Positions 8,932 to 18,772 are shown, numbered from the stretch's first letter. The stretch: 47,589 bases of DNA from a virus (IMGVR_UViG_2706794673_000013), one strand, 5' to 3'. The notes: generated by a model not told the origin, from the letters alone. Program-made: numbers and translations.

Positions 8932-9789
8932 ATGCTGTTTGTGCTTATTCTAAGCCACCGGGCAGCATCATACGGGGCAATTATGGCCGCATTACCATAC
9001 ATGCAACTGTACATAGCTGATTACCTGGCTGACACCATGCATTTGTCAGCAGAGGAGCATGGTGCGTATTTGTTGCTGATGTTCAATTACTGGCAAACAG
9101 GAAAGCCAATACCTAAAAACAGGCTGGCAAAAATTGCCCGTCTGACTAACGAGCGATGGGCTGATGTTGAACCATCCTTGCAGGAGTTTTTTTGCGATAA
9201 CGGCGAGGAATGGGTGCATCTTCGGATTGAGGAAGATCTGGCATCAGTCAGGGAAAAATTAACCAAAAAATCAGCCGCAGGAAAAGCATCTGTTCAGGCC
9301 AGAAGAAGCAGAAAGGAAGCAGATGTTCAAACAAAACAAGAGAGAAATTTAACAGGTGTTCAAACAGATGTTGAAGTGGTGTTTGAACATGATGTCAACA
9401 CAAAGGCAACTAATAAAGATACAGATAAAGATCTAAAAACAGATCCCCCCCTAAATCCCCCCCGGGGGAATCGAGGTGTCAAAAAGTTTGACCCTCTGGA
9501 TATTGCTTTGCCGAACTGGATTTCTGTCTCGCTTTGGCGTGAGTGGGTTGAATTTCGCCAGGCATTGCGAAAACCGATTCGAACGGAGCAGGGCGCTAAC
9601 GGGGCGATACGGGAGCTGGAAAAATTCCGCCAGCAGGGTTTTTCACCTGAGCAGGTGATTCGACACAGCATCGCCAATGAATACCAGGGCTTGTTCGCGC
9701 CGAAAGGTGTTCGACCTGAGACGTTACTCCGACAGGTTAACACCGTCTCGTTACCGGATAGTGCGATCCCGCCAGGCTTCAGGGGGTAA
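8932..9789 (+). CDS. ydaU: YdaU (DUF1376, replication-associated)
   Basis: 285-aa ORF (MLFVLILSHRAASYGAIMAALPYMQLYIADYLADTMHLSAEEHGAYLLLMFNYWQ...); recognised Rac YdaU. Confidence 0.85.
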   Translation: MLFVLILSHRAASYGAIMAALPYMQLYIADYLADTMHLSAEEHGAYLLLMFNYWQTGKPIPKNRLAKIARLTNERWADVEPSLQEFFCDNGEEWVHLRIEEDLASVREKLTKKSAAGKASVQARRSRKEADVQTKQERNLTGVQTDVEVVFEHDVNTKATNKDTDKDLKTDPPLNPPRGNRGVKKFDPLDIALPNWISVSLWREWVEFRQALRKPIRTEQGANGAIRELEKFRQQGFSPEQVIRHSIANEYQGLFAPKGVRPETLLRQVNTVSLPDSAIPPGFRG

Positions 9790-9795
9790 CTGACC

Positions 9796-10542
9796 ATGAA
9801 AAATATTGCGACAGGCGACGTTCTTGAACGTATCCGCAGACTGGCCCCGTCACATGTAACCGCGCCATTCAAGACGGTAGCGGAGTGGCGCGAGTGGCAA
9901 CTTTCCGAAGGCCAGAAACGTTGTGAGGAGATCAACCGTCAGAATCGTCAGTTGCGGGTGGAAAAAATTCTGAATCGCTCTGGCATCCAGCCATTGCACC
10001 GCAAATGCTCGTTTTCGAATTACCAGGTGCAGAACGAAGCGCAGCGATACGCGTTGAGTCAGGCGAAATCCATCGCTGATGAACTGATGACCGGGTGTAC
10101 AAATTTTGCGTTCAGCGGAAAACCTGGTACCGGGAAGAACCACTTAGCGGCAGCTATCGGGAATCGCCTGCTGAAAGACGGTCAGACAGTGATTGTGGTT
10201 ACCGTGGCTGATGTTATGAGTGCCCTGCACGCCAGCTATGACGATGGGCAGTCAGGCGAAAAATTTTTGCGGGAACTATGCGAAGTGGATCTGCTGGTTC
10301 TTGATGAAATTGGCATTCAGCGCGAGACGAAAAACGAGCAGGTGGTGCTGCACCAGATTGTTGATCGCCGGACAGCGTCGATGCGCAGCGTGGGGATGCT
10401 GACAAACCTGAACTATGAGGCCATGAAAACATTGCTCGGCGAGCGGATTATGGATCGCATGACCATGAACGGCGGGCGATGGGTGAATTTTAACTGGGAG
10501 AGCTGGCGTCCGAATGTCGTCCAGCCAGGAATTGAGAAGTAA
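9796..10542 (+). CDS. ydaV: DnaC-like replicative helicase loader (YdaV)
   Basis: 248-aa ORF with Walker A ([11 protein letters not shown]) and Walker B (LLVLDEIG) motifs of the IstB/DnaC AAA+ family. Confidence 0.9.
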
Positions 10543-10564
10543 TTTTTACCGGGAGGAAATTTTT

Positions 10565-11326
10565 ATGGAGACTGTTTTTGACGCACTGAAAGCAATGGGA
10601 AAAGCCACATCCATAGAACTTGCTGCGCGACTTGATATCAGTCGTGAAGAAGTGCTGAACGAACTATGGGAACTGAAAAAAGCTGGTTTCGTTGATAAAA
10701 GCGCGTACACCTGGCGTGTGGCTGATAACAACGTTCAGCAGGAACAGCCAATGCAGGCAGAACTGCCGGAAGAAACCACCACGGCAACTGTAGTGAAAAT
10801 CTCAGAGTGCGATTTAACCGCGACGATTGAACAACGCGGACCACAAACGGCGGATGAACTGGCTACGCTGTTCGGTACAACATCCCGCAAAGTTGCTTCA
10901 ACGCTGGCAATGGCAATCAGCAAAGGACGCCTGATTCGCGTAAACCAGAACAGTAAATTTCGTTACTGCATGCCGGGCGATAATTTACCAGCAGAGCCGA
11001 AAGCTGCATCGGTAGCGGAAACTGATGGTAAAGCCTTTCCTCAGCCAGCCGGTGTTGCGTTACCAGTACAGGAAGCGGCAACACAGGAAGATATTAAAAC
11101 AGAAACTGTGGCGGACATTGTGCAGTCGCTGCCATCGTTTACTGAAACGCAAGCGGATGACCTAGTTTTACCATCGCTGCATATGGCAAACCGCGAACTG
11201 CGTCGGGCGAAAAATCATGTCCAGAAGTGGGAGCGAGTCTGCGCCGCGCTGCGGGAGCTGAACAAGCACCGGGATATTGTCCGACAGATTGTCGATTCCT
11301 CCAGTCGTATTGTGTCGGAAAAGTGA
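10565..11326 (+). CDS. YdaW-like protein (full length)
   Basis: 253-aa product from ATG 10565 ([13 protein letters not shown]...) preceded by GGGAGGA; N-terminal winged-helix-like segment. Confidence 0.6.
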
Positions 11327-11758: not shown

Positions 11759-11957
11759 ACGTTACTAGATCAAAGAGCATTAGTTCATATGTAAATTGAC
11801 ATTTTTCTGGCACAGGGGAGAGCTAGCGTGGTTGTCCGCTTTGTGCCAATAGCGGACATTGCTGGCTCATGGTATGTTAGTTTAAGGAGGCAGGTTATGC
11901 CCTGTATTTCGCTGTGGTATAATAGTTGCGCAATTGATACAAGGGAGCGTTACATCG

Positions 11958-12919
11958 TGAAAATTGTTTTCGAGGTTAATGGAAAGAAAGTTCCACTAAA
12001 ATCTTTAAAATACATAAGCAAAAAAGATCAACTCGAAGTAATGAAAAACTGGTTCTTTGAAAACTTTGAAGATCCGGCAAATGCTTGTCCGTATGAAAGT
12101 AGAGAAGGTGGCTATGCTTACATATATGGCGGGCCGTATGATGCGAGCGAAGAACTACAATCCATCTTCGGTCAATATGTTAAATCTGAGTATATTGAGG
12201 AATTAGTAGATGAATTACAAACACAATGTTTTGACTGGTCTGGAAACTCAAATAATATAGATGATTGGTACGATGATGATATCTACGACGCTGTAACGTC
12301 TTCCGGTAATCCGTATTTAAAATTCATTGATAATATCGATAAAATAAAAAAACTTGCAAAAGATAAAACTGAACAACAGCAAAAAAACCACTTGCTTAGT
12401 TTGCTCTACACGAATGTTATTACAGCTTTGGAAACGCTTTATGTTGAGCTATTCATTAATTCTATAGAGAAAGATGATGTCTACATAGCCAATTGTATAG
12501 AAAAAGGTAAGACTGAATTTAAAGTAAGCAAAGATATTGCTGCGTTGCCTTTCAAGGGTGAACCCATCGAGAAAATTAGGGGAGAGCTAATCAGGTCAAT
12601 CAAGGAACACTTGATCAGTGCAAGCTGGCATAGCACTAAAAAGGTAATCGACCGCTATGAAGCTACATTCGATATAAAAGTACAAAAAGACTGTCCGATA
12701 GAAGCTATTGAATTGGCAACCCTCAATCGAAATCACTTAGTGCATCGTGGTGGAAAGGATAAAGAAGGGAACCTCGTAGTGATTACAGACCAGGATCTTG
12801 AAACGCTGATTGAAAATGCATCGAACCTGGCAATTATGCTCTACAACAGTTTAAATGTAGCAACGAATAAAACCACCATTTTGCAACCAGATGACAAACC
12901 GTTCATTCATGAATTTTAA
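11958..12919 (+). CDS. Hypothetical protein A of AT-rich cassette (candidate defence/abortive-infection protein)
   Basis: About 320 aa from GTG 11958 preceded by AAGGGAG (alternative ATG at about 12041); visibly AT-rich, K/N/I/D-rich codon usage unlike flanking phage genes; R-x4-H motif (RNHLVH) near C-terminus. Confidence 0.55.
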
Positions 12920-12934
12920 TAGCGCAGGTCATAC

Positions 12935-13936
12935 ATGGATATTCGCACACGAAAGACAAAATTTTTAGAGTCGTTAGATTCAACTGAAGTGATACGCAAA
13001 GCAGTAAGTCTCGCTATAGATTGCATTATTGATAATCATAATAGTAATGAAGATACCCCCTTAGTTATTACCAGCTATGATGATCTCTGTAGAATCCAGG
13101 TGCTAAATTATGTACAGGAGTTTTGCGAAGCTGCATTCCCTGATATGGATGAATATTACTTTAGTCCTAACATACTTCGCATCAACGGCAAGACTAGTGA
13201 AGAAGCTTGTATTAACTTAATTAAACTCTTAAGAAGTACAAAAGGCATGCTATTCTGGTCCGATGCCCCATCGTGGTTCGCTAGCCTCCCCGACGGATTA
13301 TTCCATGTTGTTAACATTGATCAAAAAATCGTTACTCGCGGCCTTAATAAGAAAAACTCTAAGCCGACAATAATCAATAAAGATTACAGTGTAGATACAC
13401 TACTATCAGAGCTATTTTTGAATGGCGCACACATGGAGCAACCCAACGTACACAACGTTTCTGAGGGAAACATGAAGTTCTATGATGAATGCCATGCTGG
13501 ATTAATCAGACCAATACCCGCTCCAATAGGCGCGTCATACGATGAAGAGATCACAATTAATTCTCCAGATTGGCAAAAGCTCGCGTGTGTAGCTTTACGC
13601 CGCTATCAGTCGAAGGAATGTCATGACGGAATGCAATGGGATACAACCGATCATGGTTGGACTGATGTAATCGCGTATCCATTCGTCGAAGAAATACAAT
13701 CAATGGATAATAGTGGTTATCGACAATGTTTAGTTGGGCTGGTCACAATAAACAATTCAAATGCAAATTCTCCGTACCTATCTACCGTTTGGATACATCC
13801 ATTTTATCGCAGGAGAGGGTTATTAAGTAAGTTATGGCCAAAATTACAAGAGTTATATGGAAGTAACTTCGAAATTGAGCGACCTAATGAAAATATGAAA
13901 GCATTTCTGAAAAGTGCGAAACACGCAGATTACTAA
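12935..13936 (+). CDS. Hypothetical protein B of AT-rich cassette (possible GNAT-like C-terminal domain)
   Basis: 333-aa ORF 15 nt downstream of protein A, same strand and same AT-rich composition; C-terminal segment CLVGLVTINN...VWIHPFYRRRGLLSKLW resembles the GNAT acetyl-CoA binding motif. Confidence 0.55.
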   Translation: MDIRTRKTKFLESLDSTEVIRKAVSLAIDCIIDNHNSNEDTPLVITSYDDLCRIQVLNYVQEFCEAAFPDMDEYYFSPNILRINGKTSEEACINLIKLLRSTKGMLFWSDAPSWFASLPDGLFHVVNIDQKIVTRGLNKKNSKPTIINKDYSVDTLLSELFLNGAHMEQPNVHNVSEGNMKFYDECHAGLIRPIPAPIGASYDEEITINSPDWQKLACVALRRYQSKECHDGMQWDTTDHGWTDVIAYPFVEEIQSMDNSGYRQCLVGLVTINNSNANSPYLSTVWIHPFYRRRGLLSKLWPKLQELYGSNFEIERPNENMKAFLKSAKHADY

Positions 13937-14113
13937 TTTATGAATCAGTCTGTGGAGTTAGGGTTGGTGTGAACAAGTAGGGTAAGAGCCTCAACGTGAT
14001 GCTATGCCGACCTGCTCCCTGAGAATTCACACAGAAGGCTGCTAGCAATGTCTGCAGATCGCTCAAAGCGGACTAAAATGTTGGCTTGTTTCTGACTTAG
14101 AGCATTTAAGGAA

Positions 14114-14338
14114 GTGCTGGTGGTGACTGGTTGTTGTGTTCCATTTCTACAGAATAAAATCACAGAAACTATACCCAATAGTTGTATTGAATCACTGACG
14201 AGACAGCCTCATATTTATCAGGACTGGTGTGCGTCTAATACAGGGGGTTGTCGTGCTGGTTCTCAAATGTGCGCTGGCTATTGCGGCTGTAATGGCAATT
14301 TATTGTCTTGCTGTTGTTCTTATGGAGCGGCTTTCTGA
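14114..14338 (+). CDS. Small Cys/Gly-rich ORF (possible peptide; may be non-coding)
   Basis: 74-aa GTG-initiated ORF ending ...CRAGSQMCAGYCGCNGNLLSCCCSYGAAF; poor SD spacing; no family recognised. Confidence 0.2.
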   Translation: MLVVTGCCVPFLQNKITETIPNSCIESLTRQPHIYQDWCASNTGGCRAGSQMCAGYCGCNGNLLSCCCSYGAAF

Positions 14339-14895: not shown

Positions 14896-15720
14896 AACCA
14901 CCTCCTCCAAAACATGCATTAAAAATGCATCTTTTGGAGGGTTATGTCAAGCTGTTATGAAACACATAATTGATATGTTGATTAGAGGAGAAGATAGAAT
15001 AAATATGGTTGTTTTTCGTATAACTATTTGTTTTACTTTTAGTTTATGCATTCTGTGTGTTNNNNNNNNNNNNNNNNNNNNNNNNNNNNNNNNNNNNNNN
15101 NNNNNNNNNNNNNNNNNNNNNNNNNNNNNNNNNNNNNNNNNNNNNNNNNNNNNNNNNNNNNNNNNNNNNNNNNNNNNNNNNNNNNNNNNNNNNNNNNNNN
15201 NNNNNNNNNNNNNNNNNNNNNNNNNNNNNNNNNNNNNNNNNNNNNNNNNNNNNNNNNNNNNNNNNNNNNNNNNNNNNNNNNNNNNNNNNNNNNNNNNNNN
15301 NNNNNNNNNNNNNNNNNGAAATATGATTCCAGCAACTTATCATGTGGCTACTTTATAAAAATAATGCCCATATAAAACAACAAGCGAAAAGGATTACGGA
15401 TAAAAAAGGAGCGAGATGTGCGAACTTGTTATTTTCCATGTTTAACCACCTTAAATAATTGATGATGACGGGATGATNNNNNNNNNNNNNNNNNNNNNNN
15501 NNNNNNNNNNNNNNNNNNNNNNNNNNNNNNNNNNNNNNNNNNNNNNNNNNNNNNNNNNNNNNNNNNNNNNNNNNNNNNNNNNNNNNNNNNNNNNNNNNNN
15601 NNNNNNNNNNNNNNNNNNNNNNNNNNNNNNNNNNNNNNNNNNNNNNNNNNNNNNNNNNNNNNNNNNNNNNNNNNNNNNNNNNNNNNNNNNNNNNNNNNNN
15701 NNNNNNNNNNNNNNNNNNNN

Positions 15721-18622: not shown

Positions 18623-18772
18623 TATTTATTGTTTTGTAATAAACGGTTTCGGCTTAGGTTTGTTCTGACACAGCTACGGCACTGAGCTAAATTTAGCGGA
18701 TAGTCAGCTCTGAGCCAGTGGCGGACGTAACAACTACTATTGCTGAGATTTTAATGGATTGAGGAGCAAGAA

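What the first reader, a model, noticed from the sequence alone, without database searches (positions are those of the whole stretch)
11760..13940. AT-rich two-gene cassette between replication genes and the nin/Q region: candidate undescribed defence or abortive-infection system
Two co-directional ORFs (about 320 aa and 333 aa, 15-nt spacing) sit in a stretch that is clearly more AT-rich than the flanking prophage genes, which points to separate acquisition. Neither resembles any standard lambdoid gene I recognise. Protein A has an R-x4-H motif (RNHLVH) near its C-terminus, the spacing used by HEPN RNase active sites; protein B ends with VWIHPFYRRRGLLSKLW, which resembles the GNAT acetyl-CoA binding loop. 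A HEPN-like plus GNAT-like pairing in a prophage accessory slot is typical of phage-defence or toxin-type cargo, and I do not recognise this pairing as a named system.
Basis: partly seen in the sequence, partly recalled or inferred. Interest (0 to 1): 0.78.

Follow-up and report, generated by a model that had tools for sequence, protein, structure and literature searches.

The report
Mobile HEPN RNase plus acetyltransferase cassette
A Rac-like E. coli prophage carries a 2.2-kb inverted-repeat-bounded cassette encoding a predicted HEPN RNase and a GNAT-fold acetyltransferase, in a slot where related prophages keep known or candidate anti-phage genes; the two genes look like untested defence cargo but are not an obligate pair.

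Summary
Two co-directional genes lie 15 nt apart (A 11957-12919, 320 aa; B 12935-13936, 333 aa) in DNA of 34-41% GC, against about 50-53% upstream.

The claim that the two form one system is not supported. A relatives at 72% identity or less, and most B relatives, occur alone in defence islands. Three loci have lost A by internal deletion and kept B.

No known defence model matches either protein, and I found no experimental work on them. My best reading is two self-sufficient defence-type genes travelling together, with A acting as an abortive-infection RNase like HepS or Tha.

New here: the pair is a discrete 2240-bp unit (11834-14073) bounded by about 33-bp inverted repeats. The same unit sits in at least nine unrelated contexts, including an IncF plasmid. 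Other Rac-like prophages hold different repeat-bounded cargo (PDC-S15, DUF5677) in the same slot. What moves these units is unknown.

The parts
11834..11867 (+). Left terminal inverted repeat (L arm) of the cassette, GTCCGCTTTGTGCCAATAGCGGACATTGCTGGCT. It is itself a 7-bp-stem hairpin (GTCCGCT/AGCGGAC).
   Evidence: Homology to at least nine unrelated contexts starts at 11833/11834. Ends are aligned. PWM score is 49.7 bits, against no hit of 18 bits or more in 531 kb of shuffled sequence. The pattern gives 6 matches (3 sites on both strands), against 0.2 expected by chance.
11915..11923 (+). Putative extended -10 promoter element TGgTATAAT inside the cassette, 34 nt upstream of the GTG start of A. 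This is inferred only.
   Evidence: Read from the sequence. A matching TGGTACAAT is retained upstream of B in the A-deleted derivatives L009 and L123. The consensus scan did not call it because it has no -35 element.
11957..12919 (+). Gene A, 320 aa: HEPN/RES-NTD1 (about aa 20-95), a helical linker, and a RiboL-PSP-type HEPN domain (about aa 140-305).
   Evidence: dN/dS is 0.12-0.21 against six diverged copies.
12728..12745 (+). Codons for R258-N-H-L-V-H263, the Rx4H HEPN catalytic motif.
   Evidence: R258, H263 and R264 are invariant in 43 sequences.
12935..13936 (+). Gene B, 333 aa: a family-specific alpha/beta N-domain (about aa 1-160) plus a GNAT-fold acyltransferase domain (about aa 175-333).
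   Evidence: dN/dS is 0.28-0.43.
13787..13819 (+). Codons for VWIHPFYRRRG, the beta4/alpha3 region of the GNAT domain where acetyl-CoA pyrophosphate normally binds.
   Evidence: W286, H288, P289 and R292 are invariant in 33 sequences. The region lies inside the Pfam Acetyltransf_1 match.
14040..14073 (-). Right terminal inverted repeat (R arm). Its reverse complement is GTCCGCTTTGAGCGATCTGCAGACATTGCTAGCA.
   Evidence: Homology to other contexts ends at 14073/14074. Also (45.3 bits).

Best explanation
The region is a 2240-bp mobile accessory cassette (11834-14073) lodged in the cargo slot just downstream of the DUF977 gene of a Rac-like prophage. It carries two defence-island genes that can each stand alone.

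Gene A is a HEPN ribonuclease with an N-terminal HEPN/RES-NTD1 domain. By analogy with the solo prophage HEPN proteins HepS and Tha, it most likely sits as an inactive oligomer in the lysogen. A cue from an infecting phage would switch it on, and it would then cut cellular RNA (tRNA or mRNA) through the composite R258/H263 site, stopping translation and aborting the infection.

Gene B is an acetyl-CoA-dependent acyltransferase. Its GNAT domain looks most like protein-lysine acetyltransferases. It probably modifies a protein target on its own, either as a second defence or counter-defence activity or as an optional modulator of A.

Shown: the folds, the conserved catalytic motif, purifying selection, the mobility of the unit, the defence-type slot and neighbourhoods, and the fact that each gene occurs without the other. 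Inferred: RNase activity, the trigger, abortive infection, acetyl transfer and its substrate, and the promoter.
For: A is HEPN:
- 41 of 43 family members hit PF18870 and 19 of 43 hit PF18735. Four distant members pass the PF18735 gathering score.
- R258-x4-H263 is invariant.

B is GNAT:
- The model has pLDDT 89.5 and pTM 0.81.
- The best Foldseek hits are HAT1, MYST-family enzymes and ESCO1.
- 11 of 33 members hit PF00583.

Both genes are under purifying selection.

The slot is a defence hotspot:
- QueH with a Dcm/NgoMIV restriction-modification pair, DUF5677, and an alpha/beta hydrolase.
- The FRG-domain candidate PDC-S15, PADLOC E = 1e-98.

Solo relatives sit beside known defence genes:
- A next to a Septu PtuA and PDC-M68B.
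- B next to SIR2-HerA, a ThsA-like SIR2 protein, PD-T4-5, PD-T4-3 and Mrr.

The two genes are independent.

Against: - There are no experimental data for either protein. No PADLOC model matches and no paper mentions them.
- The window's own A does not reach any Pfam threshold for the HEPN domain. Its assignment rests on homologues and on the predicted fold.
- Defence-island association is circumstantial.
- Within the paired clade, the 15-nt gap and the co-divergence of A and B (A 84-100% identical, B 78-100%) are also what a functionally coupled pair would show.
- B's GNAT domain ends right after helix alpha4, and its Q/RxxGxG/A loop is poorly conserved, so catalytic competence is not certain.
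Confidence: 0.5

Rival explanations
1. A and B form one coupled system. B acetylates A, or A's RNA or protein target, to keep the HEPN nuclease silent until infection. This would parallel HEPN-MNT modules, where the partner enzyme AMPylates the HEPN toxin.
For: - Every A copy at 84% identity or more is followed by B at a conserved distance. This holds in about 40 loci from several genera and replicon types.
- The two genes co-diverge, and no terminator lies between them.
Against: - A relatives at 50-72% and at about 35% identity have no B and no conserved partner.
- B relatives at 39-62% identity have no A.
- B survives after A is deleted, at two different deletion junctions.
- No A-only derivative of the cassette was seen. 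That is the reverse of what is expected if B were simply the antidote that cells must keep.
Confidence: 0.2
2. B is not a defence gene. It is a prophage counter-defence or host-modifying enzyme, for example one that acetylates and inactivates a host or rival immune protein as the anti-CRISPR AcrVA5 does. A would then be an unrelated neighbour.
For: - B's fold is closest to protein-lysine acetyltransferases.
- B is retained alone under the same leader after A is lost.
- That GNAT anti-CRISPRs exist is my own knowledge and was not checked here.
Against: Most B relatives lie in chromosomal islands next to defence genes, not in phages. None of the 21 representatives in 1.84 billion proteins shows a phage-specific architecture.
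Confidence: 0.12
3. The cassette is selfish cargo with no benefit to the host. It would be an addiction or stabilisation module for whatever element carries it, or simply passenger genes of a non-autonomous transposable unit.
For: - The unit has terminal inverted repeats and moves between prophage, plasmid and islands.
- On the IncF plasmid it sits among relB and pemIK toxin-antitoxin genes.
- IS elements are inserted in or next to its leader in two strains.
Against: - Both genes show purifying selection.
- Solo A relatives are widespread, so A does not need a cognate antidote.
- The other cargos in the same slot are defence-type, not addiction modules.
Confidence: 0.1

Closest known systems
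HepS (Gifsy-1 prophage, Salmonella; PMC13043305)
   Different: HepS is under 250 aa with its motif at R100-H105 and has no HEPN/RES-NTD1 domain. There is no sequence-level similarity. A's trigger and RNA target are unknown.
Tha (tail-activated HEPN system of S. aureus prophages; PMC11087260, abstract seen)
   Same: A prophage-borne HEPN defence protein activated by a structural protein of the incoming phage.
   Different: Different host phylum. No relationship was tested here beyond the shared superfamily.
RiboL-PSP-HEPN / HEPN/RES-NTD1 architectures of Anantharaman et al. 2013 (PMC3710099)
   Same: The same two Pfam domains. The paper lists HEPN/RES-NTD1 fused to HEPN, with the example KPK_1764 of Klebsiella. 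It describes the L-PSP-fused HEPN family as distantly related to AbiD/AbiF.
   Different: That description is purely computational. The paper assigns the NTD1 fusions to the MAE_28990/MAE_18760 HEPN group, whereas A's relatives hit the RiboL-PSP model. No L-PSP domain and no ParB neighbour is present here.
HEPN-MNT toxin-antitoxin modules
   Same: A HEPN RNase next to a small-molecule-transferring enzyme. These are the closest solved structures (8xdj, 5yep, 7ae2).
   Different: The partner here is a GNAT, not a nucleotidyltransferase. The pairing is not conserved across the family.
GNAT toxins (TacT/AtaT-type) and the GNAT anti-CRISPR AcrVA5
   Same: GNAT fold carried on mobile elements. This resemblance is from my own knowledge.
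   Different: B is twice the size, has a unique N-domain, and has no RHH/DUF1778 antitoxin neighbour. Membership was not tested by sequence.
Defence hotspots of P2/P4 and other temperate phages (PMC9122126), and mobile insertion cassettes or integron cassettes
   Same: A fixed slot in a phage backbone holding interchangeable defence cargo, and cargo units delimited by short repeats.
   Different: - The units here carry inverted arms of about 33 bp at both ends.
- No RYYYAAC/GTTRRRY boxes were seen by eye in the arms or junctions.
- Homology between contexts stops at the outer edge of each arm.
- No target-site duplication was seen.
- No recombinase or transposase was found inside any unit.

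Membership tests
HEPN superfamily | Rx4-6H motif with a polar residue after R | tested here: met
   R258-N-H-L-V-H263. R258 and H263 are invariant in 43 sequences.
HEPN superfamily | All-alpha HEPN fold | tested here: met
HEPN superfamily | Metal-independent RNase activity from a dimeric composite site | not testable with these tools
   Needs biochemistry or a multimer prediction.
Pfam PF18735 HEPN_RiboL-PSP | Score at or above the gathering threshold (28.4 bits) | tested here: inconclusive
   The window protein gives no hit at E<=1. 19 of 43 aligned relatives hit at E<0.01. P0101, P0103, P0099 and P0060 score 28.5-39.1 bits.
Pfam PF18870 HEPN_RES_NTD1 | Score at or above the gathering threshold (27.4 bits) | tested here: inconclusive
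   The window protein scores 22.2 bits, E = 1.9e-4. 41 of 43 relatives hit at E<0.01. P0116 scores 28.7 bits.
HepS family | Stand-alone HEPN under 250 aa, detectable by sequence | tested here: not met
HEPN-MNT toxin-antitoxin | Adjacent minimal nucleotidyltransferase partner | tested here: not met
   The neighbour is a GNAT-fold protein. No nucleotidyltransferase lies in the cassette.
GNAT superfamily | GNAT alpha/beta fold | tested here: met
GNAT superfamily | Pfam PF00583 at or above the gathering threshold (20.7 bits) | tested here: inconclusive
   The window protein scores 19.9 bits. P0164 scores 27.0 and P0166 26.2. 11 of 33 relatives hit at E<0.01.
GNAT superfamily | Motif A Q/R-x-x-G-x-G/A acetyl-CoA loop | tested here: inconclusive
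   The window has R-R-R-G-L-L. R292 is invariant, but the glycine and the last position vary in the family.
GNAT-type toxin-antitoxin (TacT/AtaT-like) | Small GNAT with an adjacent RHH/DUF1778 antitoxin | tested here: not met
   B is 333 aa. No such neighbour is present.
Any system in PADLOC-DB 2.0 | Significant match to a system protein model | tested here: not met
   Best E-value is 0.011 for A, and B has no hit.
Integron gene cassette | attC with R''/R' boxes and the crossover inside the site | tested here: not met
   The arms lack RYYYAAC/GTTRRRY by inspection of the arm sequences. Homology between contexts ends at the outer edge of the arms and does not run into the next site.
IS-derived non-autonomous element (MITE or mobile insertion cassette) | Terminal inverted repeats | tested here: met
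   25 of 33 positions are identical between the two arms. The arms are conserved across 12 units.
IS-derived non-autonomous element (MITE or mobile insertion cassette) | Target-site duplication and a cognate transposase with the same ends | tested here: not met
   No duplication was seen in 10 insertion contexts. No unit examined carries a transposase.

The most novel reading that the evidence does not exclude
The inverted-repeat arms define an undescribed cassette vehicle. The arm is about 33 bp, GTCCGCTTTG-GC-A...GCGGACATTGCT. These low-copy, arm-bounded units carry defence genes: HEPN+GNAT, PDC-S15 and DUF5677. In one array a PD-T4-3 homologue lies inside the same arm-bounded segment as B.

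The units are exchanged at one fixed slot of Rac-like prophages. Elsewhere, on plasmids and in islands, they stack into arrays with an 18-nt spacing. They would be moved in trans by a recombinase that has not been identified. This would be an integron-like shuffling system for immunity genes, but with a different site architecture.
Probability: 0.3. Interest if true: 0.8.

Novelty: new variant of a known kind. Interest (0 to 1): 0.6.

Why it matters
If A protects against phage, it adds a second, structurally distinct solo-HEPN abortive-infection protein to enterobacterial prophages. It would also give the widespread HEPN/RES-NTD1 domain its first tested role, plausibly as the sensor.

B is a very small family: 21 representatives among 1.84 billion proteins. 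It has a unique N-domain and recurs in defence islands, so it could reveal an acetylation-based immune or counter-immune mechanism.

The repeat-bounded vehicle may matter most. It would explain how small defence genes hop between prophages, conjugative plasmids and chromosomal islands across Enterobacterales. The cassette is in about 4% of complete E. coli genomes and on a Klebsiella IncF plasmid.

Tried and rejected
- PADLOC, NCBIfam and PHROGs gave no functional name. The PHROGs hits are phrog_17908 and phrog_16994, both of unknown function.
- Profile searches of PDB sequences found nothing for A or B.
- The phage GenBank collection holds only the first 160 nt of the query, not the cassette.
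- Rfam found no RNA family in or around the cassette.
- The promoter/terminator scan was no better than shuffled sequence.
- I looked for a conserved partner of solo A. A 208-aa upstream ORF recurs in L003-L005 and a 182-aa downstream ORF occurs in L002. Neither is shared across clades.
- I looked for a conserved partner of solo B. The 273-aa ORFs after B in L016 and L133 are unrelated to each other.
- The B N-domain was searched alone against 1.84 billion representatives. It occurs only in B-family proteins, apart from one marginal repetitive hit, P0202.
- The afdb50 fold library was unavailable. Foldseek against PDB returned only GNAT matches, so the N-domain fold remains unassigned.
- Literature searches for the arm sequence and for repeat-bounded defence cassettes found nothing relevant.
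- An integron attC reading of the arms was considered and rejected.
- A high-copy REP/REPIN reading was rejected because the median is one copy per E. coli genome.
- The ATG at 11897 was rejected as the start of A. Homologues are 310-320 aa, and the putative promoter lies downstream of that ATG.

Full report
**What is there.** The window is a Rac-like prophage. An identical cassette sits in E. coli FORC_081 between intR/xisR/recET/kilR/sieB/ydaSTU and the nin/Q-lysis genes, at the ttcA locus.

- ORF listing gives A as an open frame 11828-12919 and B as 12935-13936, both on the + strand and 15 nt apart.
- RefSeq starts A at the GTG at 11957, giving 320 aa (WP_014639476.1). Homologues are 310-320 aa and align from that point.
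- The ATG at 11897 has a better Shine-Dalgarno sequence. It lies upstream of a TGgTATAAT element at 11915-11923 that could be the cassette's own promoter (inference).
- GC falls to 0.34-0.41 inside the genes, against 0.50-0.55 in the replication genes upstream.

**Protein A.**

- The window protein gives only a sub-threshold Pfam hit to HEPN/RES N-terminal domain 1 (22.2 bits). Even so, 41 of 43 aligned relatives hit that model and 19 of 43 hit RiboL-PSP-HEPN. Four distant relatives pass the RiboL-PSP gathering score.
- In the 43-sequence alignment, which reaches down to 26% identity, R258, H263 and R264 of RNHLVHR are invariant. So are a block of N-domain residues (W32, F33, P40, P45, E50, G52, G58-G59-P60) and E159 and W224-H225.
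- The AlphaFold model is confident (pLDDT 87.4).
- There is no sequence-level relative in the PDB.
- Anantharaman et al. 2013 described both domains computationally, including NTD1-HEPN fusions, and noted that the L-PSP-associated HEPN family is distantly related to AbiD/AbiF.

**Protein B.**

- Pfam Acetyltransf_1 scores 19.9 bits for the window protein, just under the 20.7 cut-off. Relatives P0164 and P0166 pass it, and 11 of 33 relatives hit at E<0.01.
- The model is confident and compact (pLDDT 89.5, pTM 0.81).
- Foldseek ranks the protein-lysine acetyltransferases HAT1, MYST-family enzymes and ESCO1 first.
- The GNAT part is roughly residues 175-333 and stops right after helix alpha4.
- Residues 1-160 form an alpha/beta domain with its own invariant motifs: IDCxIxN, YWAD, LFHVV and RGLN.
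- Searched alone against 1.84 billion representatives, that N-domain occurs only in B-family proteins, 21 hits in all.
- Several cysteines (C30, C218, C229, C265) and H288 are conserved. Their role is unknown.

**Are A and B one system?** No, not as an obligate pair.

- Every A copy at 84% identity or more, from any collection, has B immediately downstream at a constant distance. B diverges in step with A, at 78-100% identity.
- A relatives at 50-72% identity (about 20 loci) and at about 35% identity (about 40 loci) have no B and no shared neighbour. They lie next to P4-type integrases and other defence genes.
- B relatives at 39-62% identity have no A. Four sit directly downstream of polA in marine Gammaproteobacteria. 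Others are followed by a SIR2-domain protein or an Mrr-type nuclease.
- Three loci with B at 86% identity (L009 Rahnella, L123, L124) lack A. All three keep the cassette's left arm, part or all of the leader, and the last 40-65 nt of A. There are two different deletion junctions, so A was deleted at least twice while B was kept.
- Both genes are under purifying selection: omega 0.12-0.21 for A and 0.28-0.43 for B.

This pattern fits two self-sufficient modules that travel together. It argues against a classical toxin-antidote pair. It does not exclude optional cross-talk within the paired clade.

**Is it defence?** The evidence is by association only. PADLOC has no model for either protein.

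The slot is clearly a cargo hotspot:

- The upstream DUF977 gene is in 3900 of 5426 complete E. coli genomes. The cassette is in 205.
- Other prophages carry, at the same position, QueH; QueH plus a Dcm/NgoMIV restriction-modification pair; a DUF5677 protein; an alpha/beta hydrolase; or an FRG-domain protein. The FRG protein matches the PADLOC candidate PDC-S15 at E = 1e-98.

Neighbours of the solo relatives include known or candidate defence genes:

- Next to A: Septu PtuA and PDC-M68B.
- Next to B: SIR2-HerA, a ThsA-like SIR2 protein, PD-T4-5, PD-T4-3 and an McrB-like ATPase.

HepS of Gifsy-1 is a direct precedent. [quoted passage not shown] It is inactive at rest, is triggered by a siphovirus tail-tip protein and cleaves tRNA anticodon loops. 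Tha of S. aureus prophages is similar.

I therefore propose that A works in the same general way, with NTD1 as a candidate sensor. B's role is left open between an independent acetylation-based function and a modulator.

**The vehicle.** This is new relative to the finding.

- Homology between the window and unrelated contexts starts at 11833/11834 and ends at 14073/14074.
- Those positions are the outer edges of two inverted arms of about 33 bp. The left arm is GTCCGCTTTGTGCCAATAGCGGACATTGCTGGC. The reverse complement of the right arm is GTCCGCTTTGAGCGATCTGCAGACATTGCTAGC. Each arm is itself a hairpin.
- The 2240-bp unit (2238-2288 bp in some diverged copies) lies in at least nine different flanks. 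These are the Rac-like prophage; islands in Serratia grimesii; six metagenomic contexts; and an IncFIA/FIC conjugative plasmid of Klebsiella variicola that encodes identical proteins.
- I saw no target-site duplication.
- A position weight matrix built from the arms gives 45-50 bits at the two window sites. It gives no hit of 18 bits or more in 531 kb of shuffled DNA.
- In phage Tritos and in L102 the same prophage flanks enclose different cargo (PDC-S15, DUF5677) between the same arms. E. coli A20 holds a 272-bp cargo-less unit.
- In islands and plasmids the units are stacked. The right arm of one unit is followed by the left arm of the next after 18 nt in five of seven junctions. Two arrays begin just after umuC-like genes.
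- Arm-like sequences occur in 929 E. coli genomes, usually once each. They also occur on 804 plasmids, mostly from Klebsiella and Pantoea.
- Most solo A and B relatives are not flanked by arms. The arms therefore belong to the vehicle, not to the genes.
- The arms are not integron attC sites and not high-copy REP elements. No unit examined encodes a recombinase, and I found no description in the searchable literature. The mechanism is unexplained.

**Verdict.** The idea of a HEPN+GNAT system should be replaced by two independent defence-island genes sharing a mobile cassette.

- A is a new, untested member of the solo-HEPN kind.
- B is an uncharacterised, very small GNAT family.
- The repeat-bounded vehicle is the least expected feature and is worth following up.

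Noticed in passing
window 11834-11867 and 14040-14073; L099 5134-6958; L102 5001-6294; L162 526-797; L165 6001-8240; L167 9001-12357: Inverted arms of about 33 bp bound interchangeable cargo units. These occupy one prophage slot, and elsewhere form arrays with an 18-nt spacing between units. No target-site duplication and no recombinase was found.
   Followed up: partly
window 18703-18736: A third, weaker arm-like hairpin, GTCAGCTCTGAGCCAGTGGCGGAC (16.5 bits), lies elsewhere in the prophage, near the late-gene region. No partner arm was found.
   Followed up: no
L009 5817-7350, L123 4817-, L124 4876-6183: Derivatives of the cassette in which gene A is deleted internally, at two different junctions. 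The left arm, part or all of the leader, the last 40-65 nt of A, and an intact B are all kept.
   Followed up: yes
window 14114-14338 (+): An unannotated 74-aa ORF with 11 cysteines (…CRAGSQMCAGYCGCNGNLLSCCCSYG…) lies just outside the right arm. DNA matching the 257-nt right flank that contains it was found at about 90-96% identity in E. coli genomes in a search whose two flanks together matched 4235 of 5426 genomes, and no feature is annotated on it. It has no Pfam hit.
   Followed up: partly
L013, L130, L131, L133 (B relatives); L002 (A relative): In marine Gammaproteobacteria the B homologue sits directly downstream of polA in four separate loci. One distant A homologue lies in an integrase-bearing insert next to polA. 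This suggests an insertion hotspot there.
   Followed up: no
L163 (E. coli O78 strain 3) and L164 (strain MB56): In strain 3, IS2 is inserted just outside the left arm. In strain MB56, ISSen4 is inserted in the leader upstream of A, and a second copy lies between A and B. These could be events that alter expression.
   Followed up: partly
window 15060-15330 and 15475-15720: Runs of N (masked sequence). The corresponding stretch of FORC_081 (L001 15361-16021) is AT-rich intergenic DNA with no annotated gene.
   Followed up: partly
P0202 (1253 aa): Residues 97-164 of B, the YWAD…LFHVV…RGLN stretch, match five separate stretches of one large protein at marginal significance (E = 5.5e-4). This could be a repeat-like structural motif.
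   Followed up: no
window 8932-11326 versus L001 10509-11627: The replication genes (ydaU-like, DnaC-like, DUF1627) are intact in this window. In FORC_081, which carries the identical cassette, they are frameshifted or truncated.
   Followed up: no
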